A stretch of 64,000 nucleotides of DNA from a virus (IMGVR_UViG_3300042196_000409); one strand, 5' to 3'; counted from the stretch's first letter, positions 12,705 through 27,530 are shown. Notes: a model not told the origin generated them from the sequence alone. Numbers and translations are program-made.

Positions 12705-13083
12705 TGCCGAGGACGGTAGCTCGGCGTGATCTTGAGCGCGAATCTTCGGCAGTCATGACCGCACCTTCGCCCTGCGCTCATCGCGTTGGTTGACAGCCGC
12801 GTGTACATCGCGCTAGCCTTCTTCTTGTAGAGAAGCTCATGTCGATCGCAACCGCATCCACGAGAGTCACAAGGCGCCAAGGCGTCATGGGACACGTGTG
12901 CGCGCGTCGCGATTGGGCCCACTCGGCGAATTTTGCCGGCAAAGGGACCGTCGAGGGTATCAAGCGCCAGCCGCAGCCCACGACCTATGAAGGGAAGGCT
13001 CCAGACTCGTAGACCAGGCTAGAACAGCCGAAACGATCTGGAGCCGCCCTGGGAACAAAACCCTCGGCGGTTTTCTCGTTTTC

Positions 13084-13168
13084 GGGCGCGCAGACCGGCG
13101 TGGCTCCGGGCGTGGTTGTAACCCACGCATGCTTCTGCATCGTCTCGGTTCGATTCCGAGCGCGCCCA
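13084..13168 (+). tRNA. tRNA-Tyr(GTA), type II
   Basis: Acceptor GGGCGCG/CGCGCCC. Anticodon loop ttGTAac. Long variable arm. T-arm GGTTCGATTCC. Confidence 0.7.
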
Positions 13169-13224
13169 CGAAGGAATGTGATGACGAAGAAGAAGCTCAA
13201 ACGCACGGCCTCAAGTCCGCTCAC

Positions 13225-13304
13225 GGGCTCGTGGCAGAAAGGTTATGCACCCGACTTTTAATCGGAGCCGCGAGGCAATGGGGGTTCGACTCCCTCCGGG
13301 CCCA
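13225..13304 (+). tRNA. tRNA-Lys(TTT)-like, extended variable loop
   Basis: Acceptor GGGCTCG/CGGGCCC. T-arm GGGGGTTCGACTCCCTC. Anticodon loop cTTTtaa with one stem mismatch. Confidence 0.4.
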
Positions 13305-13319
13305 CGCACACAAGATCGA

Positions 13320-13390
13320 TCAGGGTTCGTCCAACGGTAGGACCTGCGCCTCTGGAGCGCATGACGAGGGTTCGAATCCTTCACCCTGAA
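13320..13390 (+). tRNA. tRNA-Gln(CTG)
   Basis: Acceptor TCAGGGT/ACCCTGA (U1-A72). Anticodon stem TGCGC/GCGCA. Loop ctCTGga. Confidence 0.7.
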
Positions 13391-13542
13391 CTGCACGCTG
13401 ACTGCATCGCGCGTGAATCGACGGTCCCCCGAGCAACAGCGCTCACAGCGGGACGACAGCGACACGGCGAAGGCGGGGCGAATGACAAGCGAATAGTTCG
13501 ATGATGATGACGCGATCGCGGCATGTAGCGCGATCGCAGCTT

Positions 13543-13615
13543 GTCACTCTTGCGTAGTTGGTCTGCGCGCTCGGTTGAAACCCGGGAGGTTCTGGTTCGA
13601 TTCCAGAGGGTGACG
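13543..13615 (+). tRNA. tRNA-Phe(GAA)
   Basis: Acceptor GTCACTC/GGGTGAC. Loop ttGAAac. T-arm TCTGGTTCGATTCCAGA. Confidence 0.7.
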
Positions 13616-13630
13616 CAACGGCATAACTGC

Positions 13631-13701
13631 GGGTCGCAAGCATTATGGTGATGCACTGGTCTCTTAAACCGGTGATCAGGGTTCGATCCCCTGGCGACCC
13701 A
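13631..13701 (+). tRNA. tRNA-Lys(CTT)
   Basis: Acceptor GGGTCGC/GCGACCC. Loop ctCTTaa. T-arm CAGGGTTCGATCCCCTG. Confidence 0.7.
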
Positions 13702-13722
13702 CGTTACGTGAAGCGATGTTCT

Positions 13723-13794
13723 CGAGGTGTGGCCCAACGGTAGGGTACGTCGTTTGGGACGACGGGACTGGAGGTTCGATTCCTCTCACCTCGA
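13723..13794 (+). tRNA. tRNA-Pro(TGG)
   Basis: Acceptor CGAGGTG/CACCTCG. Anticodon stem CGTCG/CGACG. Loop ttTGGga. Confidence 0.7.
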
Positions 13795-13902
13795 CGAGTG
13801 ACACGGGCATCCGAGAGCCCGGCCGGCGATCGTGTGCACGATCGCCGCGGCAACGATGAGACACCTGCTCCGGTGTTTGAAAGGCGACTCGGGTTTCTTC
13901 TC

Positions 13903-13974
13903 GCGGACGAGGCCGCTTGGTGCGGCGTCAGCGTGCCAAGCTGATTCAGGCGGGTTCGATCCCCGTCGTCCGCT
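13903..13974 (+). tRNA. tRNA-Gly(GCC)
   Basis: Acceptor GCGGACG/CGTCCGC. Loop gtGCCaa. Confidence 0.7.
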
Positions 13975-13986
13975 CGACTGCCCTCT

Positions 13987-14057
13987 GCCCTCGCAGCACG
14001 AAGGTCGTGCATCGGTTTCGTAAACCGGAGGTTCGAGTTCAATTCTCGACGAGGGCT
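13987..14057 (+). tRNA. tRNA-Thr(CGT)
   Basis: Acceptor GCCCTCG/CGAGGGC. Loop ttCGTaa. T-arm TCGAGTTCAATTCTCGA. Confidence 0.7.
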
Positions 14058-14173
14058 CGAAAGCGAACGCGTGGGATTCAACTTCTCCACGACGGGGCAA
14101 AAGCTGATGGAAGCGAATCGGCCGATAATGCGTCCTGAAAGATCTCTGAAGGCTGGGCCTGCGTTCGTGATTT

Positions 14174-14246
14174 GCTCGCGTAGCTCAGCTAGCAGAGCGC
14201 TCGTTTTGTAAACGAGATGACGCAGGTGCAATGCCTGCCGCGAGCT
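14174..14246 (+). tRNA. tRNA-Thr(TGT)
   Basis: Acceptor GCTCGCG/CGCGAGC. Loop ttTGTaa. Non-canonical T-loop TGCAATG. Confidence 0.65.
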
Positions 14247-14257
14247 CGACGCTTCAT

Positions 14258-14329
14258 TCCCCGGTAGCACAATGGTGGTGCGGTCGGCTGTTAACCGAAG
14301 GGTTGCCCGTTCGAATCGGGCTCGGGGAG
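14258..14329 (+). tRNA. tRNA-Asn(GTT)
   Basis: U1-A72 acceptor TCCCCGG/TCGGGGA, typical of Asn. Loop ctGTTaa. Confidence 0.65.
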
Positions 14330-14334
14330 CTTCT

Positions 14335-14407
14335 GCGAACGTGGTGTATTGGTCGCATGCAGGTCTTCCAAACCTTGCGGTGATGGGTTCGAGTCCCTCC
14401 GTTCGCT
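14335..14407 (+). tRNA. tRNA-Gly(TCC)
   Basis: Acceptor GCGAACG/CGTTCGC. Loop ctTCCaa. Weak T-stem. Confidence 0.5.
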
Positions 14408-14411
14408 CGAT

Positions 14412-14484
14412 GCGCGCGTAGCTTAGTGGCGAAAGCATTTGCCTGACGTGCAGAGGATCGCGAGTTCGAGTCTCGCCGCGCGTA
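14412..14484 (+). tRNA. tRNA-Val(GAC)
   Basis: Acceptor GCGCGCG/CGCGCGT. Loop ctGACgt. T-arm GCGAGTTCGAGTCTCGC. Confidence 0.6.
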
Positions 14485-14489
14485 CTGTT

Positions 14490-14562
14490 GTCGTGTTCGT
14501 CTAGCGGCCTAGGACACTGGTCCCTCAAACCGGTTACGCGAGTTCGATTCTCGCACACGACG
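14490..14562 (+). tRNA. tRNA-Glu(CTC)
   Basis: Acceptor GTCGTGT/ACACGAC. Loop ccCTCaa. Confidence 0.6.
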
Positions 14563-14578
14563 CTGAAGAAGTTTTTCT

Positions 14579-14654
14579 GCCCCTGTAGCTCAGCAGATCA
14601 GAGCACTCGGCTACGAACCGAGGTTAGTCGGAGGTGCAATTCCTTCCAGGGGTA
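14579..14654 (+). tRNA. tRNA-Arg(ACG)
   Basis: Perfect anticodon stem CTCGG/CCGAG with loop ctACGaa. D-arm GCTCAGCAGATCAGAGC. T-loop TGCAATT. Confidence 0.65.
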
Positions 14655-14822
14655 CTAGGCGCACGTGCACGTGGGCAGCTCGCGTTGGTGTCCCACCACC
14701 TTCGCGAGGACTGGTGCACGCCGCGCTTCATTTTGCTTCGACGGCTCGCTGCTTGTTGCAAGGCGAGTGATGGTGATGCCGCTCGCTGGCAAACCTCGGG
14801 GTGCACTCTCCGAAGTTAGGTC

Positions 14823-14912
14823 AGGCCGTCGAGGGAGTTTCTAGGTCGCGCGAGCTGGGCTCGGCTTGGAGTCCAAATCCAATGCGGCAGGGTTCAATTC
14901 CCTGGCGGCCTG
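14823..14912 (+). ncRNA. atypical 90-nt tRNA-like RNA (Trp-CCA-like anticodon arm, ~17-nt insertion in the D region)
   Basis: Acceptor AGGCCGT/GCGGCCT. Canonical T-arm CAGGGTTCAATTCCCTG. Perfect hairpin TTGGA-gtCCAaa-TCCAA. D region too long for a standard cloverleaf. Confidence 0.35.
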
Positions 14913-14993
14913 CGGCTTGTGGGGTCTTGGCCTCGCGGCAACGTGAGGAGGGAGCCAAAGAGAACTAGGTGAGAGTCCTGGGGACCCGATCTT

Positions 14994-15066
14994 GGCGCGC
15001 AGATCACCTGGCGGTGATGTCGGTCTCATATGCCGAATGCGGAGGGTTCAATTCCCTCGCGCGCTA
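14994..15066 (+). tRNA. tRNA-Met(CAT), elongator-type
   Basis: Acceptor GGCGCGC/GCGCGCT. Loop ctCATat. Anticodon stem lacks the three G-C pairs of an initiator. Confidence 0.6.
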
Positions 15067-15069
15067 CCT

Positions 15070-15110
15070 ACTAATTTAGGAGTAACTAGTAGTTCGTTAG
15101 TAGTTCGTTC
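15070..15110 (+). repeat. AT-rich island with tandem TAGTAGTTCGT direct repeat between tRNA genes
   Basis: Sequence ctaatttaggagtaactagtagttcgttagtagttcgttcac is a sharp GC drop in a ~66% GC context. Confidence 0.5.
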
Positions 15111-15111
15111 A

Positions 15112-15183
15112 CGGGGTGTAGCGAAGTGGTATCGCGCTGCGTTCGGGACGCAGAGACCGCTGGTTCGATCCCAGTCACCCCGA
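15112..15183 (+). tRNA. tRNA-Pro(CGG)
   Basis: Acceptor CGGGGTG/CACCCCG. Perfect anticodon stem CTGCG/CGCAG. Loop ttCGGga. Confidence 0.7.
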
Positions 15184-15201
15184 CGATTGGATGCTGGATA
15201 T

Positions 15202-15310
15202 GGGCGTGGTGGCGGCACGGATGCGGGTTCGATCCCCGTCGGGTCCACGACGGGCCCGTGGCTGGTGCCTACGGAGATATCCACCAGGGGTTCGACTCCC
15301 CTCGCGTCCA
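15202..15310 (+). ncRNA. ~110-nt tRNA-like RNA with G3-U70 acceptor and tmRNA-type T-arm
   Basis: 5' GGGCGTG pairs with 3' CGCGTCC. T-arm AGGGGTTCGACTCCCCT is identical to the tmRNA T-arm at 47.56 kb. Internal GGGTTCGATCCCC second T-like loop. Confidence 0.3.
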
Positions 15311-15316
15311 CGACAC

Positions 15317-15389
15317 GGAGGACAGTTCACCTAGGGGTGATGGCGGTCCTACAAACCGCTCGCGGTCGGTGCAATCCCGACGTTCTCTA
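15317..15389 (+). tRNA. tRNA-Val(TAC)
   Basis: Acceptor GGAGGAC/GTTCTCT with wobbles. Perfect anticodon stem GCGGT/ACCGC. Loop ccTACaa. T-loop TGCAATC. Confidence 0.55.
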
Positions 15390-15396
15390 CGATGAC

Positions 15397-15467
15397 GTCT
15401 CGTTAGCACAGCGGTAGTGCAGTCGCTTGATAAGCGGCCGACGAAGGTTCGACCCCTTCACGAGACA
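15397..15467 (+). tRNA. tRNA-Ile(GAT)
   Basis: Acceptor GTCTCGT/ACGAGAC. Loop ttGATaa. T-arm GAAGGTTCGACCCCTTC. Confidence 0.7.
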
Positions 15468-15476
15468 CGACGGCCT

Positions 15477-15547
15477 GGGCCTCTAGTTCAATGGAGAACG
15501 TCTGCCTTATCAGCGGAATGTTGAGGGTGCAAATCCTTCGGGGCCTA
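15477..15547 (+). tRNA. tRNA-Ile(TAT)-like (anticodon assignment uncertain)
   Basis: Acceptor GGGCCTC/GGGGCCT. Loop ctTATca. T-loop TGCAAAT. Confidence 0.4.
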
Positions 15548-15555
15548 CGATTCGT

Positions 15556-15629
15556 GGTGTGCGTAGTCATCTGGTGAAGACGCTGGGTTGTGGTCCCAGT
15601 TCAGGCGAGTTCGATCCTCGTCGCACACC
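15556..15629 (+). tRNA. tRNA-His(GTG) with G-1
   Basis: Extra 5' G pairs with C73. Perfect anticodon stem CTGGG/CCCAG. Loop ttGTGgt. Confidence 0.7.
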
Positions 15630-15635
15630 CTGTCT

Positions 15636-15710
15636 CGAGCAGTAGCTTAGCCTGGCTAAAGCGTTGGTCTGGGGGACCAAAGATCGCAGGTTCAAATCCT
15701 GTCTGCTCGA
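15636..15710 (+). tRNA. tRNA-Pro(GGG)
   Basis: Acceptor CGAGCAG/CTGCTCG. Perfect anticodon stem TTGGT/ACCAA. Loop ctGGGgg. Confidence 0.6.
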
Positions 15711-15787
15711 CGAAAGGAGAATGCGGCTGATCTACTGTCAGATCTGTCGCCAAGGAGCGTCTAGTCTACCGAAGGAGAACGAACGTC

Positions 15788-16324
15788 ATGGAGCCGACAC
15801 ATCAAACGCTTGTCCTTAGTCAGGGCTATGAGCCCGTTAAGATCGTTTCGTGGCAGCGCGCGATCACGATGCTCTTCCTCCACAAGGTCGAAGTGATCGA
15901 GGAGTACGATCGCAACATCAAGACGACGTCGTTCGTCGCCAAGATCCCCGCGGTCGTGCGGCTGCTCAAAGCGTTCCGTCGGTACAAGAAGCCGGTGAAG
16001 TTCTCCCGGATCAACATCTACGGCCGCGACAAGTACACCTGCCAGTATTGTGGCGTGAAGAAGTCGATCCACGATCTGACGTATGACCACATCGTGCCTC
16101 GATCGCGAGGCGGCAAGACGACGTGGACGAACATCGCAACGTGCTGCCAAGGCTGCAACGGCAGGAAGGCGAACCGTACGCCCGAGCAGGCCGGCATGCG
16201 TTTGCTCCAGGTGCCCGAGCAGCCAATCTCGTCGCCGGTGCTCGTCGTGACCGTGAGCCGCCAGTCTGCACCCGACGCGTGGCGCGACTACCTGTACTGG
16301 ACCGGCGAGCTGGACCAGGACTGA
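15788..16324 (+). CDS. HNH endonuclease (homing-type, embedded in the tRNA array)
   Basis: CQYCG..DLTYDHIVPRSRGGKTTWTNIATCCQGCNGRK contains the Cys4 zinc knuckle plus the HNH catalytic His/Asn. Confidence 0.8.
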   Translation: MEPTHQTLVLSQGYEPVKIVSWQRAITMLFLHKVEVIEEYDRNIKTTSFVAKIPAVVRLLKAFRRYKKPVKFSRINIYGRDKYTCQYCGVKKSIHDLTYDHIVPRSRGGKTTWTNIATCCQGCNGRKANRTPEQAGMRLLQVPEQPISSPVLVVTVSRQSAPDAWRDYLYWTGELDQD

Positions 16325-16349
16325 TCAAGCGAGCGACGTGCTCGCATCT

Positions 16350-16423
16350 GGGAACGTGGGAGAGATGGAGTCTCCGCCGGCCTGTCACGCCGGAGGTCGC
16401 GGGTTCAAGTCCCGTCGTTCCCG
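16350..16423 (+). tRNA. tRNA-Asp(GTC)
   Basis: Acceptor GGGAACG/CGTTCCC. Perfect anticodon stem CCGGC/GCCGG. Loop ctGTCac. Confidence 0.7.
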
Positions 16424-16528
16424 CCGATAGCGTGGTCGATCACCGCGCGTCGATGACTCATCCTCGCAAGGGGCTCCTTTTTGGGATGCCGCGCACGTCG
16501 AGCGCTCGGCGACGCGGCTGGGTCTTCT

Positions 16529-16599
16529 GGGTCCATCGTTCAAAGGGAGAACGCGGCGTTCGCAATGCCGAAATGCGAGTTCGAGTCTCGCTGGATCCA
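16529..16599 (+). tRNA. tRNA-Ala(CGC)
   Basis: Acceptor GGGTCCA/TGGATCC with G3-U70 Ala identity pair. Loop ttCGCaa. Confidence 0.6.
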
Positions 16600-16618
16600 C
16601 GTTACGTAGTCCTACGAA

Positions 16619-16690
16619 GGGGCTGTCTGTCCAACGGGAAGACGCGCGTCTGGCTGACGCGAGATGACGGTTCGATTCCGTTCAGCTCCA
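16619..16690 (+). tRNA. tRNA-Ala(GGC)
   Basis: Acceptor GGGGCTG/CAGCTCC with G3-U70. Anticodon stem CGCGT/ACGCG. Loop ctGGCtg. Confidence 0.55.
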
Positions 16691-16727
16691 CGATCGCTGC
16701 TCCGCCGTGCGGTGCCTACACGCAACC

Positions 16728-16806
16728 ATGATGCCTCAAGGTGAGGCGTCGGCCTATGGAGCCGAAGCAGTCAGGTTCAATTCCTGATCATCCCGCAAGG
16801 GATCGT
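16728..16806 (+). ncRNA. possible degenerate tRNA-like element
   Basis: T-arm TCAGGTTCAATTCCTGA and hairpin TCGGC-ctATGga-GCCGA are present. No pairing acceptor stem found by eye. Confidence 0.2.
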
Positions 16807-16834
16807 GCACCGTGCACTCGAGCAGCGAACACTT

Positions 16835-17086
16835 TCAGTGGCCATGGCAAGGGCCACGGCAGACCATGCATTCTTCCTCGAAGCTGTCGTCGAGGGTGTC
16901 TGCGCCAGGATGCGGATGGATCACTTCCTCTTCGAGGACGTCTCCAACCAAGGCATCGTTGGTGGTGGTAGCGCAGCGTGGACACAAGAGCATCGATTCA
17001 GCGTGCCGCCACGCCTGGGGGAACTGATCGATGGCGGTGATCTCCTGCGTCTTGCCACAGCGAGCGCACACAACGAATGTCGCCAT
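16835..17086 (-). CDS. small zinc-ribbon protein
   Basis: CARCGK...CPRC and CMVCRGPCHGH Cys clusters. Lies between tRNA genes on the opposite strand. Confidence 0.35.
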   Translation of the reverse strand: MATFVVCARCGKTQEITAIDQFPQAWRHAESMLLCPRCATTTNDALVGDVLEEEVIHPHPGADTLDDSFEEECMVCRGPCHGH

Positions 17087-17134
17087 GCTTCTACGCTACG
17101 TTACCGTCGGTATCACCGACAGTTTTTGGCTCTC

Positions 17135-17207
17135 GGGCAGGCATGTTCCAAGGGGGCGAGCGGGATTTGCAATCCTGCTGCGGCCGGTTCAATCCCGGTC
17201 CTGTCCA
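17135..17207 (+). tRNA. tRNA-Ala(TGC)
   Basis: Acceptor GGGCAGG/CCTGTCC with G3-U70. Loop ttTGCaa. Confidence 0.6.
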
Positions 17208-17415
17208 CGCGTCATGCTTACGCCGGCACCTCGCGATGTCTCCCGGCTCTACTCGGGATCGATTGCGGCGCGCCGACGAGCACAGCCTCGATGTCGGCTC
17301 TATGAGTTACGTCCGGGGCAACTCAAGCGGGCCGTCCGCGGGACTGTCTCCCCCGCTTTGCTAGCCGTTCGCTTGTGCCCGAGGATATCAGACCCAGCTC
17401 CGCGCTGTGTTTCTC

Positions 17416-17486
17416 GCCGCTATCGTCAAACAGTAAGACGCTGCTTTGGTAGGGCAGAAATCCGGGTGCGATTCCCGGTGGCGGCT
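17416..17486 (+). tRNA. tRNA-Thr(GGT)
   Basis: Acceptor GCCGCTA/TGGCGGC. Loop ttGGTag. T-arm CCGGGTGCGATTCCCGG. Confidence 0.6.
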
Positions 17487-17494
17487 CGAATCGA

Positions 17495-17565
17495 TCAGGG
17501 ATCGTCTAACGGTAGGACACGAGATTTTGGATCTCGGCATGAAGGTTCGATTCCTTCTCCCTGAA
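17495..17565 (+). tRNA. tRNA-Gln(TTG)
   Basis: U1-A72 acceptor TCAGGGA/TCCCTGA. Perfect anticodon stem CGAGA/TCTCG. Loop ttTTGga. Confidence 0.7.
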
Positions 17566-17569
17566 CCAT

Positions 17570-17641
17570 GCATGGGTCGCCAAGAGGCTAGGCACTTCTC
17601 TGCAAAAGAAGCACACGCGGGTTCGACTCCCGTCCCATGCT
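17570..17641 (+). tRNA. tRNA-Cys(GCA)
   Basis: Acceptor GCATGGG/CCCATGC. Perfect anticodon stem CTTCT/AGAAG. Loop ctGCAaa. Confidence 0.7.
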
Positions 17642-17645
17642 CCGC

Positions 17646-17720
17646 GCTCCTGACGCCCCATTGGAAGGGGTCTCTGTTTTCTAAACAGATCCGTTGCAGG
17701 TTCGAGCCCTGTCAGGAGCA
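17646..17720 (+). tRNA. tRNA-Arg(TCT)
   Basis: Acceptor GCTCCTG/CAGGAGC. Anticodon stem TCTGT/ACAGA. Loop ttTCTaa. Confidence 0.6.
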
Positions 17721-17729
17721 CGAGATCTT

Positions 17730-17802
17730 GGTCCCGTAGCCTAGTGGACGAGGCACGCGTTTCCTAAACGCGCTCACGCAGGTTCGAGTCCTGCCGGGAT
17801 CA
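17730..17802 (+). tRNA. tRNA-Arg(CCT)
   Basis: Acceptor GGTCCCG/CGGGATC. Perfect anticodon stem CGCGT/ACGCG. Loop ttCCTaa. Confidence 0.65.
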
Positions 17803-17827
17803 CGCACGTCATCATCGTCGACTTCAC

Positions 17828-17898
17828 GCCTCCGTACGTGGACGTGACCCGAGTTTCCGAAGCTTGGTGGGCTGGTTCAAATCCAGCCGGAGGCACCA
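17828..17898 (+). tRNA. atypical tRNA-like gene with encoded CCA (possible 9-nt anticodon loop)
   Basis: Perfect acceptor GCCTCCG/CGGAGGC followed by A-CCA. T-arm GCTGGTTCAAATCCAGC. Core folds only with stem CCGAG/CTTGG around the loop tttCCGaag. Confidence 0.35.
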
Positions 17899-17901
17899 TA
17901 C

Positions 17902-17973
17902 GTCGGTGTCGTTCAATGGTCAGGACCACGGCCTTTCACGCCGTAGATACGAGTTCGATTCTCGTCGCCGATA
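17902..17973 (+). tRNA. tRNA-Glu(TTC)
   Basis: Perfect anticodon stem ACGGC/GCCGT. Loop ctTTCac. T-arm ACGAGTTCGATTCTCGT. Confidence 0.55.
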
Positions 17974-17994
17974 CGATCTTCACGCACGTGCCAG

Positions 17995-18174
17995 CTACAC
18001 GCGTTTCATTTTCTGCGCTGTGTGCAGCGCGACGCTCAACATCCACGAGCTAAGGCCGAGACCCGCATTCTTCGCGGTCTCAGCCAATGCTTTTTTCTGC
18101 GCTTCTGTGACGCGGATGAGGATTCCTTTGTTCTTGCGTCCGGCCTTGCTGCGTTTCGGTTTCTTCGCCGGCAT
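17995..18174 (-). CDS. ribbon-helix-helix (CopG/MobC-like) DNA-binding protein, 59 aa
   Basis: Manual translation MPAKKPKRSKAGRKNKGILIRVTEAQKKALAETAKNAGLGLSSWML.. gives a basic N-tail then a beta-strand/helix RHH pattern. Not in the ORF track (<60 aa). Confidence 0.45.
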   Translation of the reverse strand: MPAKKPKRSKAGRKNKGILIRVTEAQKKALAETAKNAGLGLSSWMLSVALHTAQKMKRV

Positions 18175-18184
18175 GTCGTGATAG

Positions 18185-18325
18185 CGCTTGTATAGCGTTA
18201 AGCGCGCGCTGTCAATCTGACGCCCCGCGCGCGCAGGATTGACTCCGCTTGCGAATGGATATACAAACGCTAGCGTTGAATGACAGGGCGCGAACGCGCC
18301 GTTGTTTGTTTTGCTAGACGAGGTG
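18185..18325. promoter_or_regulatory. divergent promoter region between the RHH gene (-) and the Ro60-like gene (+)
   Basis: Plus strand: TTGACT, 15-nt spacer, TATACA ahead of the 18330 start. Minus strand: TTGACA, 15-nt spacer, TATACA ahead of the 18174 start. GC-rich inverted repeat GCGCGCGC..GCGCGCGC. Confidence 0.35.
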
Positions 18326-18329
18326 CGCG

Positions 18330-20249
18330 ATGACGACAGCAGAGAAGTTGGGACCTGCGGAGAAGATTCTCCAGACGCTCCTGAATCACACGGACCACAT
18401 GGTCCACAACCGTCCCGGCATGGTGTCGCCGGATGCTCGTCACACGATCGGTGTGCGCTGGGTGTTCGTCACGCACAAGGAAGAGAACGGCCAGAAGGTC
18501 GTCTACGAGCTGACGAAGGTCGGCAAGAAGACGAACGAGATCCGCAGGGGCGTGATGCGCGCCGACGGCAAGGTCGAGGAGAACGGCAAGATCGTCGGCG
18601 AGTACCGCTCGCCTGGGCTGTTTCCCGAGGTCGCCGCCTGGATGTATCGCCAGGTCGCTGAGGTGTGGAAGATGGACAACGAGTTCGCGGCGCGCTGGGC
18701 GTCGTACGCGTTTGGCCAGGAGCACCGTGACCTCAAGGTCGTGCTCGCGGCCTTCATGCTCGTGCAGACGCGCAAGGGCGATCCCGTGCTCGACGGGGGC
18801 AAAGTCGCGTTCTACGACGACGACTTCCGCGACATCGGCGAAGCCATGATGCTTATCCACCGTCGGGACGGAAAGGATCTGAGCCCGAAGCTCCTGGTCC
18901 GCGTCCACGACCTTCTGAAGGTGCCGGGCGTCGCGGCCATCAACCGCGAGCTGGGCTTTGGTAACTCGGCGCGTCGCCCGTTCCTTGGCCGTTGGTCGAA
19001 GGCGGTCGAGAAGTGGCTCCAGTTTCGCGAGGAGAACCCCAGGATGCTCGACGGCCTCATCAAGGCCGGCTTCAAGAGTACCGTGAAGGATCTCGCGCGT
19101 ACGGTCGGCTACAAGCCTCAGACCCCGAAGTTCTTCGAGGCCCTCGGCTGGGCACAGGATCAGGCCAAGGACGGCCGGCGCTCGATCCTCATCGGCGTCG
19201 ATCTGGCCAAGGCCGAGACCTGGAACGATCTGACCGAGGCGCAGATCTGCGAGAAGATCGTCACCGAGAAGCCGGGCTGGAAGCGCATCGTCGGTCTCTT
19301 GCCGAAGAAGCTCGGGGTCACGCGCGCCATCATGAGCGCAGCCGTCGAGTCGAACGCGCTGTCCAACAAGGACCTCATCATTCTCACGCCCACGCTGGAG
19401 GAGCTGGGGCTCCTGGAGGTCAAGGAGGTCAAGGCGAAGTGGGAGCGCGCCCTCAAGAAGGCCGAGGACGACATGCGCGCGGGCAACATCGCGCGCAACG
19501 TGAAGTCCAAGGACGTGCAGGAGCAGCTCCAGGGAGCGGCCGACACGGCGCTCCAGAAGACGATGGAGGTGGCGACGCGCAACATGCGTATCTACGTCCT
19601 CATCGACATCTCCAGCTCGATGCAAGGTGCCATCGAGAGGGCGAAGACGCTGCTCGAGAAGTTCCTCCAGGGCTTCCCGCTCGATCGCACACACATCGCG
19701 ACGTTCAACACGGTGGGGCGCGTGATCGAGATCAAGCACGCTTCGGCGGCTGGCGTGGCCCAGGCATTCAAGGGTTTCACTGCCAGCGGGGGCACGACGC
19801 ACGGTGCAGGTGTGATGGCTCTTGCCCCGTTCCCGCCGAAGGAGGACGAAGACACGCTCTTCATCATCGTTGGCGACGGCGGCGAGAACTTGTCGTTCCA
19901 CACCTACGTCGAGCAGTCCAAGCTGCGTCCGATGGCCTTCGGCTTCCTGATGCTGCCTGGTCAGAACTACGGCGCACCGGAGAAGACGGCGGCACAGCTC
20001 GGCATTCCGTGCTTCAAGATCGAGCAGAACACGTTCGACGACGTCTACGCGATCCCGCGGACCATCCGCGCGCTCGTGGCGGCGACGCCGGTCGGTGCCG
20101 TGGCGCGTGCGGCGGCGACGCCGCGTGTGACGCTCGTCGAGACGATCCTCAAGACGGATCTGCTCAAGAAGCCTGCATGGGCGGCGACGGTCCGTGCGAT
20201 CGCCGCAGCGGACGCAGCACCCGCGGCGACGGCCGCGGCGACGGCCTAG
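18330..20249 (+). CDS. Ro60-like protein (alpha-helical TROVE-like N-region + C-terminal vWA/MIDAS domain)
   Basis: vWA MIDAS DISSSMQG..TASGGTTHG..IIVGDGGEN at residues ~415-560. ~410-aa helical N-region. Architecture and size match Ro60/Rsr; the TROVE assignment is inferred. Confidence 0.55.
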   Translation: MTTAEKLGPAEKILQTLLNHTDHMVHNRPGMVSPDARHTIGVRWVFVTHKEENGQKVVYELTKVGKKTNEIRRGVMRADGKVEENGKIVGEYRSPGLFPEVAAWMYRQVAEVWKMDNEFAARWASYAFGQEHRDLKVVLAAFMLVQTRKGDPVLDGGKVAFYDDDFRDIGEAMMLIHRRDGKDLSPKLLVRVHDLLKVPGVAAINRELGFGNSARRPFLGRWSKAVEKWLQFREENPRMLDGLIKAGFKSTVKDLARTVGYKPQTPKFFEALGWAQDQAKDGRRSILIGVDLAKAETWNDLTEAQICEKIVTEKPGWKRIVGLLPKKLGVTRAIMSAAVESNALSNKDLIILTPTLEELGLLEVKEVKAKWERALKKAEDDMRAGNIARNVKSKDVQEQLQGAADTALQKTMEVATRNMRIYVLIDISSSMQGAIERAKTLLEKFLQGFPLDRTHIATFNTVGRVIEIKHASAAGVAQAFKGFTASGGTTHGAGVMALAPFPPKEDEDTLFIIVGDGGENLSFHTYVEQSKLRPMAFGFLMLPGQNYGAPEKTAAQLGIPCFKIEQNTFDDVYAIPRTIRALVAATPVGAVARAAATPRVTLVETILKTDLLKKPAWAATVRAIAAADAAPAATAAATA

Positions 20250-21506: not shown

Positions 21507-22208
21507 ATGAAGCCCTACTATTTTCGCTCAGGTTTTGGCGACATCGTGCTCGACGATGTTCTCAACAGCACGCCGTGGATCAAGGTCACGGACGCGCGGT
21601 TGGAATGCTTCATGTCGGCACGCACGGAGACGTACACCTACGGCGAAGGCCGCGGCGTTCGGACGTACACGCCCGTTCCGTACTCGCCTCTCGTGGCGGA
21701 CATCCAGCGCCAGCTCAACCGTGACGGCCTGGAGCGCGAGACGCTCGATGACGTCTACATGTACAACGTATGTTTCCTGAATCGCTACGACAACGCGGCG
21801 ATGCAGCTTGGGTGGCACTCGGACGACTCACCGGGGATGGACCACGAGCATCCCATCGCAGTCGTGTCGTTCGGGCAGCCGCGCGAGATCTGGTGGCGTG
21901 AGAAGGGCCAGACCGGAGTCATCCCAGCTGATCAGCGTCAGCTTCTCGAGCACGGCTCCATCTTTGTGATGCCGGCGGGCATGCAGCGCACCCACCAGCA
22001 CCGCATCCCGAAGGGTGACAAGCCGATGGGCTTGCGCGTCTCGCTCACCTACCGGCACTACGACCCCGAAGAGGCATGGCGCGCGACGCACCGTACGCTG
22101 CTTGAGACCGCGAAGTTCGAGACCCAGTCGATGGCTGTCGATCTTCACGTTGAGGTTCACCGCGGCCTTGACGTCGTTCTTGCAAACGCAGCCCAGCCAA
22201 AGGAATAG
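21507..22208 (+). CDS. alkB: AlkB-family 2OG-Fe(II) dioxygenase
   Basis: Fe-binding HxD (LGWHSDD) and distal His (HQHRIP). AlkB-type RVSLTYR 2OG-binding Arg. ~230 aa. Confidence 0.75.
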   Translation: MKPYYFRSGFGDIVLDDVLNSTPWIKVTDARLECFMSARTETYTYGEGRGVRTYTPVPYSPLVADIQRQLNRDGLERETLDDVYMYNVCFLNRYDNAAMQLGWHSDDSPGMDHEHPIAVVSFGQPREIWWREKGQTGVIPADQRQLLEHGSIFVMPAGMQRTHQHRIPKGDKPMGLRVSLTYRHYDPEEAWRATHRTLLETAKFETQSMAVDLHVEVHRGLDVVLANAAQPKE

Positions 22209-22212
22209 GCCC

Positions 22213-22797
22213 GTGAAGTTCTCAGACATCAAGCTCACGGACATCGGCACCACGATCCAGATGGTCGGTGCCGTCTACGCCGACGGAAGTGGCAAGGGCT
22301 ACTACTTCGCCTTTCCGTCGACGAGCGGCGAGGGTGCGAATCCCGAGCACGTCGAGATGACGAACGAGGACTGGAAGGTCATGCTTCGGCAGGCCGACGT
22401 GGTCGAGGTCGAGGCGACGGTGCAGGCCGAGAACGGAGAGCTTCAGAAGGCGATCGTTCGCAAGAGCCAGCGCCAGATCGATTCGCAGGTCTCGTGGAAC
22501 GTCTTTCGGCGGGACAACTTCATGTGCCGTTACTGCGGCACCGAGAAGCTGTCGCTGACGGTCGATCACCTCGTGCGTTGGGAGGACGGCGGTCCTTCGA
22601 TCGAGGAGAACCTTGTCGCGTGCTGCCGAAAGTGCAACAAGGTCCGCGGTGACACGGCGTACGCGGCGTGGCTGCGGCACCCGTACTATCTGGAGAAATC
22701 GCGAAGTGTCTCCGGCGCGTACCAGCAGCTCAACCAGCGTGTTGCCGACACTCTCGCGAACATCCCCCGTGTTCACATCAAGAAGGGCCGCTCATGA
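22213..22797 (+). CDS. fusion protein: unknown N-domain + C-terminal HNH nuclease domain (first gene of the Ubl/JAB/E1 cassette)
   Basis: GTG start. C-terminal CRYCG..LTVDHLVRWEDGG..NLVACCRKCNKVRGD matches HNH. Stop overlaps the next start (ATGA). Confidence 0.55.
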   Translation: MKFSDIKLTDIGTTIQMVGAVYADGSGKGYYFAFPSTSGEGANPEHVEMTNEDWKVMLRQADVVEVEATVQAENGELQKAIVRKSQRQIDSQVSWNVFRRDNFMCRYCGTEKLSLTVDHLVRWEDGGPSIEENLVACCRKCNKVRGDTAYAAWLRHPYYLEKSRSVSGAYQQLNQRVADTLANIPRVHIKKGRS

Positions 22798-23528: not shown

Positions 23529-24107
23529 ATGGCCGCCATGATCGTCATCGTCGGCGTCGGAGCTCTGGGCAGTCACCTGGTCCAGTTCATTCGTAACGAG
23601 AAGGTGGACATCCGCATCATCGACTTCGATCGCGTCGAGCAGAAGAATGTGATGTCGCAGTTCCACGGCAAGCCTGGCGTGGGCAAGAACAAGGTCGCTG
23701 CCCTCCAGCAGACGATGGACTTCTTGTTCAAGCGCCAGCTCGCGGTGGTGAGCAACAAGCTCGTCGCCGACAACATCGACGTGCTCATGAAGGGCGCGAC
23801 GCTGGTCGTCGACTGCCTCGACAACGGCGCCTCGCGGAAGCTCGTGCAGGACTACGTGCGCAAGCACAACCTGCCGTGTCTTCACGGCGCGCTCGCTCCG
23901 GGCGGCGAGTTTGGTCGCGCGATCTGGGACGAGAAGTTCGTGATCGACAGCGAGGTCGGTGCGGGTGCGGTGACGTGCGAGGACGGGGAGTTCCTTCCTT
24001 TCATCGCGCTCACGGCCGGGTTCATGGCGCGCTCGATCCAGCTCTTCTTGAAGGAGGAGAAGAAGATCGGATTCTCGATCTCGCCCGTCGGTGTGATCGC
24101 CATCTGA
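23529..24107 (+). CDS. ThiF/MoeB/E1-like adenylyltransferase (short form)
   Basis: Rossmann motif IVGVGALGS. E1-type IIDFDRVEQKNVMSQ (Arg finger and Asp). Ends LPCLHGAL. 192 aa. Confidence 0.65.
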   Translation: MAAMIVIVGVGALGSHLVQFIRNEKVDIRIIDFDRVEQKNVMSQFHGKPGVGKNKVAALQQTMDFLFKRQLAVVSNKLVADNIDVLMKGATLVVDCLDNGASRKLVQDYVRKHNLPCLHGALAPGGEFGRAIWDEKFVIDSEVGAGAVTCEDGEFLPFIALTAGFMARSIQLFLKEEKKIGFSISPVGVIAI

Positions 24108-26052: not shown

Positions 26053-26056
26053 AAGG

Positions 26057-27442: not shown

Positions 27443-27523
27443 GCGTCAATGGTGGAACAAGCAGACACGGTGCTCCTAAAAAGCACTGCTCATGGCATGA
27501 GGGTGCAAATCCCTCTTGACGCA
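27443..27523 (+). tRNA. tRNA-Leu(TAA), type II
   Basis: Acceptor GCGTCAA/TTGACGC. Perfect anticodon stem GTGCT/AGCAC. Loop ccTAAaa. 12-nt variable-arm hairpin. T-loop TGCAAAT. Confidence 0.6.
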
Positions 27524-27530
27524 CGTTTCC

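What the first reader, a model, noticed from the sequence alone, without database searches (positions are those of the whole stretch)
13084..17973. Very large tRNA array (>=33 genes in 5 kb) with near-complete codon coverage and an embedded HNH endonuclease
Hand-folded tRNAs cover Tyr, Lys x2, Gln x2, Phe, Pro x3, Gly x2, Thr x3, Asn, Val x2, Glu x2, Arg x3, Met, Ile x2, His, Asp, Ala x3 and Cys, spaced 3-20 nt apart. An HNH gene (15788-16324) and a small RHH gene sit inside the array. All three Ala tRNAs keep G3-U70 and tRNA-His has G-1, which argues the genes are functional. Several use non-canonical T-loops (TGCAATG/TGCAAAT). Arrays of this size are typical of large virulent phages that reprogram translation.
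Basis: seen in the sequence. Interest (0 to 1): 0.55.

Follow-up and report, generated by a model that had tools for sequence, protein, structure and literature searches.

The report
Conserved 33-gene tRNA array, huge phage
A 4.9-kb stretch of a roughly 329-kb uncultivated phage genome carries 33 working-looking tRNA genes plus a fixed HNH nuclease gene; this is a real but already familiar feature of huge phages.

Summary
Window 13084-17974 holds 33 tRNA genes, all on the + strand. All 33 are kept in the same order in at least three related phage genomes. Two further tRNA-like calls are doubtful.

- Detection: 28 genes reach the Rfam tRNA threshold. Forty shuffles of the region give no calls.
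- Selection on structure: across orthologues, 99% of acceptor and T-stem positions pair, and 117 of 396 pair columns carry compensatory double changes.
- Identity marks: G3:U70 in all three tRNA-Ala, and an encoded G-1:C73 in tRNA-His.
- Codon coverage: the array reads 49 of 61 sense codons. All tRNAs in the window read 56, leaving five Ser codons unread.

The window is part of a 328,796-bp metagenome contig. It belongs to a widespread lineage of 200-620 kb phages that bin with Myxococcota. Nearby are a tmRNA, an RtcB ligase and a Ro60-like protein.

The HNH gene sits in the same slot in all close relatives and next to tRNAs in distant ones, so it is a fixed resident and not a sporadic invader. 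The odd TGC T-loops covary with an A18 D-loop, and this variant is widespread in viral tRNAs.

Verdict: a new member of a known kind, of moderate interest.

The parts
13084..13169 (+). tRNA-Tyr(GUA), class II with a long variable arm
   Evidence: ARAGORN default. Below threshold on Rfam tRNA-Sec (33.5 bits); the tRNA-model score is hidden by clan competition. Orthologues in L004-L006 average 88% identity.
13225..13305 (+). tRNA-Lys(UUU), 81 nt, with an unusual 14-nt variable region
   Evidence: 53.1 bits. Orthologues in this slot are 72-73 nt and only about 61% identical.
13320..13391 (+). tRNA-Gln(CUG)
   Evidence: (57.9 bits).
13392..13542 (+). Conserved structured non-tRNA spacer 1: an 85-nt irregular hairpin, a conserved single-stranded tract and a 3' hairpin
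   Evidence: 147-159 nt in 6 genomes. Of 38 predicted pairs, 5 show compensatory changes. No Rfam match. The covariance model finds it only in the close clade.
13543..13616 (+). tRNA-Phe(GAA)
   Evidence: 52.5 bits. 16 compensatory pairs among orthologues.
13631..13702 (+). tRNA-Lys(CUU)
   Evidence: (55.8 bits).
13723..13795 (+). tRNA-Pro(UGG)
   Evidence: (62.3 bits).
13796..13902 (+). Conserved structured non-tRNA spacer 2, with conserved CCGAG, AACGAUGAG and UUGAAA.GCGACUCGGG tracts
   Evidence: 100-119 nt in 7 genomes. No Rfam match at E<=10.
13903..13975 (+). tRNA-Gly(GCC)
   Evidence: (40.5 bits).
13987..14058 (+). tRNA-Thr(CGU)
   Evidence: (52.1 bits).
14059..14173 (+). Spacer 3, shared only with L004
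   Evidence: 99 of 116 columns identical to L004. The gap is 4-34 nt in five other relatives.
14174..14247 (+). tRNA-Thr(UGU) with D-loop A18 and T-loop UGCAAUG (G55)
   Evidence: (59.7 bits).
14258..14330 (+). tRNA-Asn(GUU)
   Evidence: (55.7 bits).
14335..14408 (+). tRNA-Gly(UCC)
   Evidence: (42.5 bits).
14412..14485 (+). tRNA-Val(GAC)
   Evidence: (65 bits).
14490..14563 (+). tRNA-Glu(CUC), anticodon loop CCCUCAA (C33)
   Evidence: 51.9 bits. C33 is also present in L005 and L006.
14579..14655 (+). tRNA-Arg(ACG) with A18 and G55
   Evidence: 54.5 bits. A18/G55 is present in all four genomes.
14843..14913 (+). tRNA-Trp(CCA) with a very short D-loop
   Evidence: ARAGORN relaxed only. Rfam hit is to tRNA-Sec, 28.2 bits. 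The slot is conserved, and the orthologues are called by default ARAGORN.
14994..15068 (+). tRNA-Met(CAU), elongator-like
   Evidence: 38 bits. A counterpart is called in L004 and L013.
15112..15184 (+). tRNA-Pro(CGG)
   Evidence: (66.2 bits).
15202..15311 (+). Window-specific composite of tRNA/tmRNA 3'-end-like pieces. ARAGORN calls 15225-15311 an 87-nt 'tRNA-Thr(GGU)', but it is probably not a tRNA.
   Evidence: 27 nt are 96% identical to the 3' end of the window's tmRNA, and 19 nt are identical to the T arm of Gly(GCC). The fold is no better than shuffles, z = -0.5. The 132-nt gap that holds it is specific to the window; in L004-L006 the same gap is 601, 54 and 5 nt, and BLAST finds no copy of the composite in any related locus.
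15317..15390 (+). tRNA-Val(UAC), non-canonical (C33, A18, G55)
   Evidence: Found only at an ARAGORN threshold of 80%. Acceptor 7/7 and T stem 5/5 paired. The slot is conserved in L004-L006.
15397..15468 (+). tRNA-Ile(GAU)
   Evidence: (63.8 bits).
15477..15548 (+). tRNA-Ile(UAU), reads AUA; C37; T-loop UGCAAAU
   Evidence: (52.5 bits).
15556..15630 (+). tRNA-His(GUG) with encoded G-1 (15556) opposite C73
   Evidence: (45.4 bits).
15636..15711 (+). tRNA-Pro(GGG)
   Evidence: (64.2 bits).
15788..16324 (+). HNH endonuclease, 178 aa, fixed in the array
   Evidence: Pfam HNH_5 1e-16 and HNH 1e-13. phrog_16726 at 5e-44. Same slot, Pro(GGG)|HNH|Asp, at 78-83% identity in L004, L005, L006/L011, L010 and L013; in L016 no Asp gene is called and Ala(CGC) follows the HNH gene. 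Next to tRNAs at 42-65% identity in distant clades and in Rctr197k.
16350..16425 (+). tRNA-Asp(GUC)
   Evidence: (59.1 bits).
16529..16600 (+). tRNA-Ala(CGC), G3:U70
   Evidence: (59.1 bits).
16619..16691 (+). tRNA-Ala(GGC), G3:U70, U37
   Evidence: (41.9 bits).
16726..16794 (+). Doubtful tRNA-like element with anticodon AUG ('His')
   Evidence: Rfam 28.4 bits, below 29. The top two acceptor pairs are C/C mismatches. Absent from this slot in close relatives. Similar AUG-anticodon elements occur in L007 and L049.
16835..17086 (-). Small ORF of 83 aa inside the array, zinc-ribbon-like (two CxxC pairs by eye)
   Evidence: Called as a gene by JGI. No Pfam or PHROG match. 44-48% identical counterparts at a similar place in L004 and L013.
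17135..17208 (+). tRNA-Ala(UGC), G3:U70
   Evidence: ARAGORN relaxed. Acceptor GGGCAGG/CCUGUCC. The slot is conserved.
17416..17487 (+). tRNA-Thr(GGU) with A18 and G55
   Evidence: (53.2 bits).
17495..17568 (+). tRNA-Gln(UUG), CCA encoded
   Evidence: (61.1 bits).
17570..17643 (+). tRNA-Cys(GCA)
   Evidence: (52.9 bits).
17646..17721 (+). tRNA-Arg(UCU)
   Evidence: (40.3 bits).
17730..17803 (+). tRNA-Arg(CCU)
   Evidence: (58 bits).
17828..17898 (+). Atypical tRNA-Arg(CCG): truncated D arm, 6-bp anticodon stem, CCA encoded
   Evidence: ARAGORN default. No Rfam tRNA hit at E<=1. The most conserved slot, 92% identity across four genomes.
17902..17974 (+). tRNA-Glu(UUC), last gene of the array
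   Evidence: (61.2 bits).
17995..18174 (-). Ribbon-helix-helix protein of 59 aa at the 3' edge of the array
   Evidence: Pfam NikA-like 2.4e-7 (31.2 bits, cut-off 27) and TacA1. Conserved at 70-81% identity after Glu(UUC) in the close clade.
18330..20249 (+). Ro60-like protein (helical domain plus vWA) immediately downstream; the marker gene of the lineage
   Evidence: vWA Pfam matches lie just below their cut-offs. The AlphaFold model has pLDDT 74. Best Foldseek hits are TROVE/Ro60, including a Thermus phage Ro60, at E 5e-8 to 4e-6 but TM only about 0.2. More than 1900 homologues.

Best explanation
This is a functional, vertically inherited tRNA gene array of an uncultivated huge phage. The contig is 329 kb, and the host is probably in the Myxococcota.

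Thirty-three tRNA genes for 18 amino acids lie head to tail on one strand. They are most likely transcribed as long precursors and cut out by host RNase P and 3'-end nucleases. Because 31 of the 33 lack an encoded CCA, a CCA-adding enzyme must finish them. Host aminoacyl-tRNA synthetases would then charge them, since the standard identity elements are intact.

With about ten further tRNA genes in the window, the set reads 56 of 61 sense codons. The window also carries a tmRNA, an RtcB RNA ligase and a Ro60-like protein. Together these would give the phage a translation supply of its own.

That supply would keep phage protein synthesis going when host tRNAs are depleted, degraded or cut by anticodon nucleases. 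It would also match the phage's lower-GC codon usage.

The HNH gene is a fixed, probably co-transcribed resident of the array. It most likely descends from a homing endonuclease that became stable.

Shown here: the genes, their conservation, their structural constraint, their identity elements, their codon coverage and their context. Inferred: expression, processing, charging and the selective advantage.
For: **The genes are real.**
- 32 default and 3 relaxed ARAGORN calls.
- 28 reach the Rfam threshold.
- 0 calls in 40 shuffles.

**Order is conserved.** All 33 slots are colinear in L004, L005 and L006. They are also colinear in L010, L011, L013 and L016 as far as those loci reach.

**Structure is under selection.**
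- Of 706 predicted pairs, 377 are invariant, 54 changed on one side, 226 are compensatory and 49 broken.
- With stems defined by geometry only, 99.0% of 1536 cells pair, against 53.8% when the partner is slid by one base. 117 of 396 pair columns changed on both sides.

**Identity elements are intact.** G3:U70 in all three tRNA-Ala, and G-1:C73 in tRNA-His.

**Codon coverage.** The array covers 85.7% of the codon usage of 48 window ORFs. The whole window set covers 96.4%.

**Context.**
- tmRNA at 173.6 bits.
- RtcB at 1e-41.
- Ro60-like fold.

**Phage origin.**
- 328,796-bp contig.
- 59 IMG/VR viral contigs of up to 619 kb carry the marker gene.
- Virus Rctr197k has a syntenic array and carries terminase-like and head-morphogenesis genes.

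**Precedent.**
- Huge phages encode up to 67 tRNAs, tmRNAs and ligases for cleaved tRNAs (PMC7162821).
- Phage tRNAs counter tRNA-cleaving defences (PMC10264068, PMC11555353, PMC11464382).

**HNH.** Its identity to the window copy falls roughly in step with that of the Ro60-like gene (83% down to 45%), with exceptions such as L017, and it is always next to tRNA genes.
Against: - There are no expression, processing or charging data.
- No capsid or terminase gene was seen in the 64-kb window or in the 10 kb upstream of it. The viral assignment therefore rests on relatives.
- Rctr197k shares only about 8 genes with the window, judged on about 117 kb of its 197-kb record, and its terminase lineage sits on contigs of 200 kb or less.
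- Five conserved slots fail the Rfam tRNA threshold in this window: Tyr, Trp, Val-UAC, Ala-UGC and Arg-CCG. Some genes carry C33, a pyrimidine at position 37, G55 or a truncated D arm, and these may impair standard function.
- The host link is only co-binning with Myxococcota MAGs.
- Two carrier contigs exceed 1 Mb. Integration into a chromosome, or chimeric assembly, cannot be excluded for some relatives.
Confidence: 0.8

Rival explanations
1. The array serves only for codon compensation. It supplies tRNAs for codons that the phage (62% GC) uses more than a higher-GC host does. It has no role in surviving tRNA depletion or cleavage.
For: - The array includes tRNAs for A/U-ending codons: Lys-UUU, Glu-UUC, Gln-UUG, Thr-UGU, Ile-UAU and Arg-UCU.
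- The window is 62% GC.
- The marker gene co-bins with Myxococcota MAGs, a phylum that I recall as having about 68-72% GC (my own knowledge).
Against: - The set is nearly complete. It also covers the phage's commonest G/C-ending codons, which a high-GC host should already read well.
- An RtcB ligase, a Ro60-like protein and a tmRNA accompany the tRNAs. These point to RNA damage and repair.
- The host is not identified, so host codon usage was not compared.
Confidence: 0.25
2. The region is not viral. It would be a tRNA array of a bacterial chromosome, megaplasmid or other large extrachromosomal element. Such arrays are known in bacteria.
For: - No capsid, portal or terminase gene was found in the window or in the 10 kb upstream.
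- The marker gene occurs in 28 MAGs, on contigs of up to 1.03 Mb, and on one 1.17-Mb metagenome contig.
- Large plasmid-like elements with translation genes are reported (PMC7162821).
Against: - 59 carrier contigs are classified as viral in IMG/VR, mostly 200-620 kb.
- Virus Rctr197k shares the module and has terminase-like and head-morphogenesis genes.
- The window has no rRNA or other housekeeping RNA beyond the tRNAs and the tmRNA. None of the 30 ORFs scanned matched a ribosomal-protein or other housekeeping family, and 15 of the 30 had no Pfam match at all.
- Two HNH genes and several PHROG matches are present.
Confidence: 0.07
3. The array is largely a graveyard of decaying tRNA copies or recombination scars left by mobile elements and homing endonucleases, and it is no longer used.
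For: - The composite at 15202-15311 is built from tRNA and tmRNA 3'-end pieces.
- The AUG-anticodon element has a broken acceptor top.
- Several genes have non-canonical loops.
- The spacers vary between relatives and hold different small ORFs.
Against: - 33 slots keep order and anticodon across genomes that are only 60-92% identical in those genes. 99% of stem positions pair, and there are 117-226 compensatory pair columns.
- Identity elements are kept.
- The G55 T-loops are matched by A18 in the D-loop. This is the opposite of decay.
Confidence: 0.03
4. The HNH gene is an active, selfish homing endonuclease that invaded the array recently and spreads between co-infecting phages.
For: - An intact HNH domain.
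- Homing endonucleases are known inside the tRNA regions of T4 (segB) and T5 (my own knowledge).
- A LAGLIDADG gene nearby is present in L004-L007 but absent from the window. Mobile nucleases therefore do circulate in this region.
Against: - The gene occupies the same slot, 71-79 nt after Pro(GGG), in all seven close genomes at 78-83% identity. This tracks the 80-87% identity of the Ro60-like gene.
- In distant clades and in Rctr197k it lies right after Leu(CAA) or another tRNA, at 42-65% identity.
- No close relative that covers this slot lacks it.
Confidence: 0.15

Closest known systems
tRNA complements of huge phages (Al-Shayeb et al. 2020, PMC7162821)
   Same: - Genomes above 200 kb recovered from metagenomes.
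- Tens of tRNA genes, up to 67 per genome.
- tmRNA, and ligases for cleaved tRNAs.
- The proposed role is redirection or maintenance of translation.
   Different: I did not test whether this lineage (Ro60-like marker gene, Myxococcota-associated) is one of the clades named there. No phage-encoded aminoacyl-tRNA synthetase, ribosomal protein or translation factor was seen among the window ORFs I scanned.
Virus Rctr197k (KX853510), tRNA array next to the same Ro60-like gene
   Same: - 30-31 tRNA genes on one strand directly upstream of a 57%-identical Ro60-like gene.
- A ThiF-like gene, a second tRNA cluster with five Leu tRNAs, and an HNH gene homologous to the window's.
   Different: - The gene order inside the array is reshuffled.
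- Its array holds Ser tRNAs and Gly(CCC) and lacks Tyr and Ile(UAU).
- Its Arg(CCG) is of normal length.
- Its HNH gene follows Leu(CAA) instead of Pro(GGG).
- Only about 8 genes are shared with the window, judged on about 117 kb of its 197-kb record, and its terminase lineage sits on contigs of 200 kb or less.
Cluster C mycobacteriophages (Bxz1-like): tRNAs plus tmRNA plus a Ro60 orthologue with YrlA Y RNAs
   Same: A large tRNA set and a tmRNA occur together with a Ro60-type protein in a large phage (my own knowledge). Ro60 and YrlA in mycobacteriophages are documented in PMC4201824.
   Different: - No nucleotide similarity.
- The window protein does not match Pfam TROVE and is Ro60-like only by fold.
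- No YrlA or Y RNA match.
T4 and T5 tRNA gene regions
   Same: Clustered, co-transcribed phage tRNAs are interspersed with homing-type endonuclease genes (segB in T4, HNH genes in T5). T4 also has small stable non-tRNA RNAs (species 1 and 2). This is my own knowledge. T5 tRNAs carry anticodon-loop changes that evade nucleases (PMC10264068).
   Different: - Many more genes: 33 here, against 8 in T4 and about 24 in T5.
- The HNH gene here is positionally fixed across a deep lineage.
- The spacer RNAs have no similarity to any Rfam family.
Bacterial chromosomal tRNA arrays
   Same: Dense runs of 20-40 tRNA genes on one strand covering most amino acids (my own knowledge).
   Different: The context here is phage-like, and the genes are embedded with HNH genes and ORFs of unknown function.

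Membership tests
tRNA (Rfam RF00005 / cloverleaf) | Covariance-model score at or above the gathering threshold (29 bits) | tested here: met
   28 of the 33 conserved genes score 38-66 bits. Tyr, Trp, Val-UAC, Ala-UGC and Arg-CCG do not, and rest on ARAGORN plus conservation.
tRNA (Rfam RF00005 / cloverleaf) | Stems maintained by compensatory substitutions among orthologues | tested here: met
   226 of 706 predicted pairs are compensatory. 99.0% of acceptor and T-stem cells pair, against 53.8% in the slid control, and 117 of 396 columns changed on both sides.
tRNA-Ala | G3:U70 wobble pair in the acceptor stem | tested here: met
   Present in Ala-CGC, Ala-GGC and Ala-UGC.
Bacterial-type tRNA-His | Genome-encoded G-1 opposite C73 | tested here: met
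   G at 15556, with discriminator C. The same holds in L004, L005 and L006.
Huge-phage tRNA array | Tens of tRNA genes clustered in a phage genome above 200 kb | tested here: met
   33 genes in 4.9 kb on a 328,796-bp contig. Relatives are IMG/VR viral contigs of 200-620 kb.
Huge-phage tRNA array | Capsid, portal or terminase genes on the same molecule | not tested
   Only the window and 10 kb upstream could be read, and no hallmark gene was seen there. The rest of the contig is out of reach.
HNH endonuclease (PF01844 / PF14279) | HNH/beta-beta-alpha-metal domain above the Pfam cut-off | tested here: met
   HNH_5 at 61 bits (cut-off 27.5) and HNH at 51.7 bits (cut-off 21.4). phrog_16726 at 5e-44.
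Free-standing homing endonuclease (mobile) | Sporadic presence or absence among close relatives | tested here: not met
   Present in the same slot in all seven close genomes, and next to tRNAs in distant clades, with identity that tracks the marker gene.
Ro60 / TROVE protein | TROVE helical ring followed by a vWA domain | tested here: inconclusive
   No Pfam TROVE match, and the vWA matches lie just below their cut-offs. phmmer against PDB sequences is negative. The top Foldseek hits are TROVE/Ro60 over about 530 columns at E 5e-8, but with TM 0.19-0.25, from a model with pTM 0.44.
Y RNA / YrlA | Match to the Rfam Y-RNA-type models, with a Ro-binding stem plus a tRNA-like module within 4 kb of Ro60 on the same strand | tested here: not met
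   No such Rfam match at E<=1 across 12800-18300, nor at E<=10 across the spacers. The GNCGAA motif is not conserved in spacer 1.
Ribbon-helix-helix (NikA-like) | Pfam PF21983 above its cut-off | tested here: met
   31.2 bits against a cut-off of 27, for 17995-18174 on the - strand. This gene lies outside the array.

The most novel reading that the evidence does not exclude
The array may be more than a tRNA supply. In this reading it is the core of an integrated module for replacing and repairing the tRNA pool.

- **Non-canonical tRNAs as adaptations.** The odd members would be changes that let phage tRNAs escape host tRNA-directed nucleases or modification enzymes. These members are the A18:G55 elbow (which cannot carry pseudouridine 55), the C33 and pyrimidine-37 anticodon loops, the Arg(CCG) with a truncated D arm, and the Lys with a long variable arm.
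- **Spacers as new small RNAs.** The two conserved structured spacers would be new phage small RNAs. They might be partners of the adjacent Ro60-like protein, playing the part that Y RNAs play for Ro60.
- **A domesticated HNH nuclease.** The fixed HNH nuclease would have a function of its own in the module.
Probability: 0.15. Interest if true: 0.65.

Novelty: new member of a known kind. Interest (0 to 1): 0.4.

Why it matters
Its value lies in the comparative frame it opens.

- **A testable lineage.** The array is colinear over at least seven genomes. It belongs to a globally distributed lineage, with hundreds of contigs from soils, sediments, peat and ocean, that is probably tied to Myxococcota. 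That makes it a good natural experiment on how phage tRNA sets evolve.
- **A general tRNA variant.** The A18:G55 covariation is seen here and in unrelated viral contigs. It is a concrete, testable variant of the universal tRNA elbow.
- **A functional hypothesis.** tRNAs, a tmRNA, RtcB and a Ro60-like protein occur together. This supports the view that such phages defend and repair their own translation supply.

Tried and rejected
1. **Nucleotide search of the array against deposited phages.** It returned only short tRNA-Asp matches in Aeromonas phages. No close sequenced relative exists.
2. **IMG/VR scan with the single Ro60-like protein.** It found nothing. The alignment-based scan was needed.
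3. **Hammerhead idea for spacer 2** (GAUGAG ... GAAAC). Rejected: the essential U4 is missing in all copies, and no Rfam ribozyme matches at E<=10.
4. **C/D-box or k-turn idea for spacer 1.** Only a chance-level sR20 hit at E = 0.68.
5. **Y RNA/YrlA idea for the spacers or the composite.** There is no Rfam match. The YrlA motif is present only in the window copy. The covariance model of the spacer-1 hairpin finds nothing outside the six close genomes in 2.25 Mb of related loci. The idea is not supported, and this sample cannot test it further.
6. **The composite at 15202-15311 as a mini-tmRNA or Ala-type tRNA-like RNA.** It has a G3:U70 acceptor stem. However, its fold is no better than shuffles, and no relative has a copy. 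I treat it as a recombination scar.
7. **Sigma-70 promoter and terminator scan.** 0 promoter-like sites, and terminator-like sites at chance level.
8. **Proving phage identity through the Rctr197k terminase.** Its homologues lie on contigs of 200 kb or less, none on the window's contig.
9. **Walking the contig.** 10 kb upstream gave only small ORFs of unknown function. The look-up at the other end failed.
10. **Literature on A18:G55.** Two full-text searches found no description.

Full report

ARAGORN with default settings tRNA genes, all on the + strand, between 13084 and 17974. It tRNAs plus one tmRNA in the whole window.

- Lowering the ARAGORN threshold adds Trp(CCA) 14843-14913, Ala(UGC) 17135-17208 and Val(UAC) 15317-15390.
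- Rfam's tRNA model reaches its gathering score for 28 genes in the region.
- Forty shuffles of the 4891-nt region give no ARAGORN call.
- The HNH gene at 15788-16324 is confirmed by Pfam (HNH_5, 1e-16) and by PHROGs (phrog_16726, 5e-44).

Its list missed Trp and the fourth Arg.

The RHH gene it mentions (17995-18174, - strand, NikA-like) lies just beyond the last tRNA. The ORF that really sits inside the array (16835-17086, - strand) has two CxxC pairs by eye and no family match.

**2. Where does the window come from?**

The 639-aa protein encoded immediately downstream (18330-20249) places the window on JGI metagenome contig Ga0395805_0000018, which is 328,796 bp long.

- The protein has more than 1900 homologues, many on contigs of 260-460 kb.
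- 59 IMG/VR viral contigs of up to 619 kb carry it.
- Among deposited phages only Virus Rctr197k matches, at 57% identity. That virus has 30-31 tRNA genes directly upstream of the same gene, then a ThiF-like gene, a Leu-tRNA cluster and a homologous HNH gene. It also has terminase-like and head-morphogenesis genes.
- Rctr197k shares only about 8 genes with the window, judged on about 117 kb of its 197-kb record. Its terminase lineage sits on smaller contigs. It therefore shares a module, not a whole genome.
- In GTDB genomes the marker gene occurs in 28 MAGs, nearly all Myxococcota. This suggests the host phylum, but only through binning.

**3. Are the genes functional?**

Three related genomes with the complete array were compared with the window: L004 (359-kb contig), L005 (410 kb) and L006 (303 kb). 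All three carry the same 33 slots in the same order. L010, L011, L013 and L016 agree as far as they reach.

- Orthologous tRNAs are 57-92% identical.
- Of 706 RNAalifold pairs, 377 are invariant, 54 changed on one side, 226 changed on both sides with pairing kept, and 49 are broken.
- To avoid the bias of a structure predicted from the data, I also defined the acceptor and T stems by geometry alone. Then 99.0% of 1536 cells pair, against 53.8% when the 3' partner is slid by one base. 117 of 396 pair columns changed on both sides.
- All three tRNA-Ala keep G3:U70. tRNA-His has an encoded G-1 opposite C73 in all four genomes.

This is the signature of working tRNAs. Only Gln(UUG) and Arg(CCG) encode CCA, so CCA addition is required.

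**4. Which calls are doubtful?**

- **'Thr(GGU)', 87 nt, at 15225-15311.** It lies in a gap that is 132 nt in the window but 601, 54 and 5 nt in L004-L006, and BLAST finds no copy of the element in any related locus. 27 nt are 96% identical to the 3' end of the phage's own tmRNA, and 19 nt are identical to the T arm of Gly(GCC). Its fold is no better than shuffles. I read it as a recombination scar.
- **'His(AUG)' at 16726-16794.** It scores 28.4 bits and has C/C mismatches at the top of its acceptor stem. It is absent from this slot in close relatives. Elements with the same anticodon arm do occur in two distant relatives.
- **Arg(CCG) at 17828-17898.** This is the opposite case. It has no Rfam hit, a truncated D arm and a 6-bp anticodon stem. 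Yet it is the most conserved slot, at 92% identity.

**5. What do the codons say?**

The 33 anticodons read 49 of 61 sense codons. That is 85.7% of the codon usage of 48 window ORFs.

Adding the other window tRNAs (Leu x4, Ser-CGA, Arg, Met, Ile) gives 56 of 61 codons and 96.4% of usage. Only Ser AGY and UCH codons are left unread.

Both the commonest and the rarest codons are covered. This fits a replacement supply better than a narrow supplement.

**6. What surrounds the array?**

- The window encodes a tmRNA (173.6 bits).
- It encodes an RtcB ligase at 42908-44404 on the - strand (1e-41).
- The 639-aa protein's AlphaFold model (pLDDT 74) finds TROVE/Ro60 structures first, including a Thermus phage Ro60. 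The E-values are 5e-8 to 4e-6, but TM is only about 0.2. I call it Ro60-like and treat family membership as inconclusive.
- RtcB also lies near the array in relatives.

Huge phages are reported to carry up to 67 tRNAs, tmRNAs and ligases for tRNAs cut by host defences (PMC7162821). Phage tRNAs have been shown to counter tRNA-cleaving defences (PMC10264068, PMC11555353, PMC11464382).

The best-supported mechanism is therefore a phage-owned tRNA pool, with repair and rescue factors, that keeps translation running during infection. Expression, processing and charging are inferred, not shown.

**7. What is the HNH gene doing there?**

It lies 71-79 nt after Pro(GGG) in all seven close genomes, at 78-83% identity. 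In more distant clades and in Rctr197k it lies next to tRNA genes, mostly after Leu(CAA), at 42-65% identity. Its divergence mostly tracks that of the Ro60-like gene, with exceptions such as L017.

A LAGLIDADG gene nearby behaves differently: it is present in L004-L007 and absent from the window. So the HNH gene fails the 'sporadic' criterion of a mobile homing endonuclease. It looks like a fixed resident, and its function is unknown.

**8. What are the non-canonical T-loops?**

They go together with a D-loop that reads AG instead of GG, that is, A18.

- Among 1289 distinct tRNAs from 149 related loci, 27 of 31 TGC tRNAs have AG and no GG. Only 11 of 1204 TTC tRNAs do (Fisher p = 1.8e-42). These sequences are related, so the p-value overstates independence. 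The variant does occur in 17 anticodon classes and switches between orthologues.
- I scanned IMG/VR for one D-arm sequence carrying A18, which gave 62 hits in unrelated viral contigs. Of the 49 tRNAs that could be parsed, 44 have G at position 55.
- A18:G55 is therefore a general alternative elbow pair of viral tRNAs and is not special to this phage.
- I found no description of it in two full-text searches.

Other oddities in the window are C33 in Glu(CUC) and Val(UAC), a pyrimidine at position 37 in Ile(UAU) and Ala(GGC), and a 14-nt variable region in Lys(UUU).

**9. What are the non-tRNA spacers?**

- The Gln(CUG)-Phe gap (13392-13542) is 147-159 nt in six genomes and about as conserved as the tRNAs. 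It has a long hairpin and a 3' hairpin that show compensatory changes.
- The Pro(UGG)-Gly(GCC) gap (13796-13902) is conserved in seven genomes.
- Neither matches any Rfam family.
- A covariance model of the first finds it only in the close clade.

They may be stable small RNAs or processing or promoter elements. The sample is too shallow to decide.

**10. Verdict**

It is a new member of a known kind: the tRNA complements of huge phages.

Interest is moderate. The array itself is ordinary for such phages. The fixed HNH gene, the A18:G55 covariation, the atypical but conserved Arg(CCG) and the structured spacers are worth following up.

Noticed in passing
window 14174-14247, 14579-14655, 15317-15390, 17416-17487, 27443-27524; also L178-L239: T-loop G55 (TGC) covaries with D-loop A18 (AG in place of GG). 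In this lineage 27 of 31 TGC tRNAs have AG and no GG, against 11 of 1204 TTC tRNAs (p = 1.8e-42). In an IMG/VR-wide scan for one A18 D-arm, 44 of 49 parsable tRNAs have G55. This is a general alternative tRNA elbow pair in viral tRNAs. I found no paper describing it.
   Followed up: yes
window 13392-13542 and 13796-13902: Two conserved, structured non-tRNA spacers lie inside the array, in 6 and 7 related genomes. They show some compensatory changes and match no Rfam family. They may be new phage small RNAs or processing elements.
   Followed up: partly
window 41391-41464 (-): A tRNA scoring 54.3 Rfam bits has an 8-nt anticodon loop, UUUAUAAA (ARAGORN anticodon 'tata'), and a Thr-like acceptor (GCC..., discriminator U). 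It may decode quadruplets or cause frameshifts, or it may be an odd Ile/Tyr tRNA. Beside it are a Met(CAU) with mismatches in the anticodon stem (41312-41388) and a doubtful Ile(AAU) at 41166-41239.
   Followed up: partly
window 42908-44404 (-): An RtcB RNA ligase gene (Pfam 1e-41, phrog_1075) lies about 1.4 kb from the second tRNA cluster. RtcB also lies near the array in relatives L004, L005 and L007.
   Followed up: partly
window 47549-47910 (-): A phage-encoded tmRNA (Rfam 173.6 bits) has the tag peptide ANDNNGAVALAAA and a G3:U70 acceptor stem. Its 3' end is duplicated, 27 nt at 96% identity, inside the tRNA array at 15285-15311.
   Followed up: partly
window 18330-20249 (+): The Ro60-like protein (helical domain plus vWA) marks a very large uncultivated lineage. 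It has more than 1900 homologues and occurs on contigs of 200-620 kb from soil, peat, sediment and ocean. In GTDB it occurs almost only in Myxococcota MAGs, and two carrier contigs exceed 1 Mb (L077 at 1.17 Mb, L165 at 1.03 Mb).
   Followed up: partly
window 22213-22797 (+): A second HNH endonuclease gene (194 aa) lies downstream of the Ro60-like gene. It is also conserved in position across relatives, at 73-88% identity in the close clade. A LAGLIDADG gene that follows it in L004-L007 is absent from the window.
   Followed up: partly
window 15069-15111: An AT-rich spacer between Met and Pro(CGG) contains a tandem 11-nt direct repeat (TAGTAGTTCGT x2). It may be a promoter or a protein-binding site.
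   Followed up: no
window 16726-16794; L007 21407-21480; L049 199-271: tRNA-like elements with an AUG anticodon ('His') and similar anticodon, D and T arms recur in three distant members of the lineage. Two of them have mismatched top acceptor pairs, and the L007 copy has G3:U70.
   Followed up: partly
window 21507-22208, 23529-24107, 25946-27004, 27627-28187, 37648-38829: Auxiliary genes sit between the tRNA clusters. They match a 2OG-Fe(II) oxygenase (AlkB-like family), a ThiF-family protein, an SPFH/Band 7 protein, a metallophosphoesterase and a putative cyclase. Their roles are unknown.
   Followed up: no
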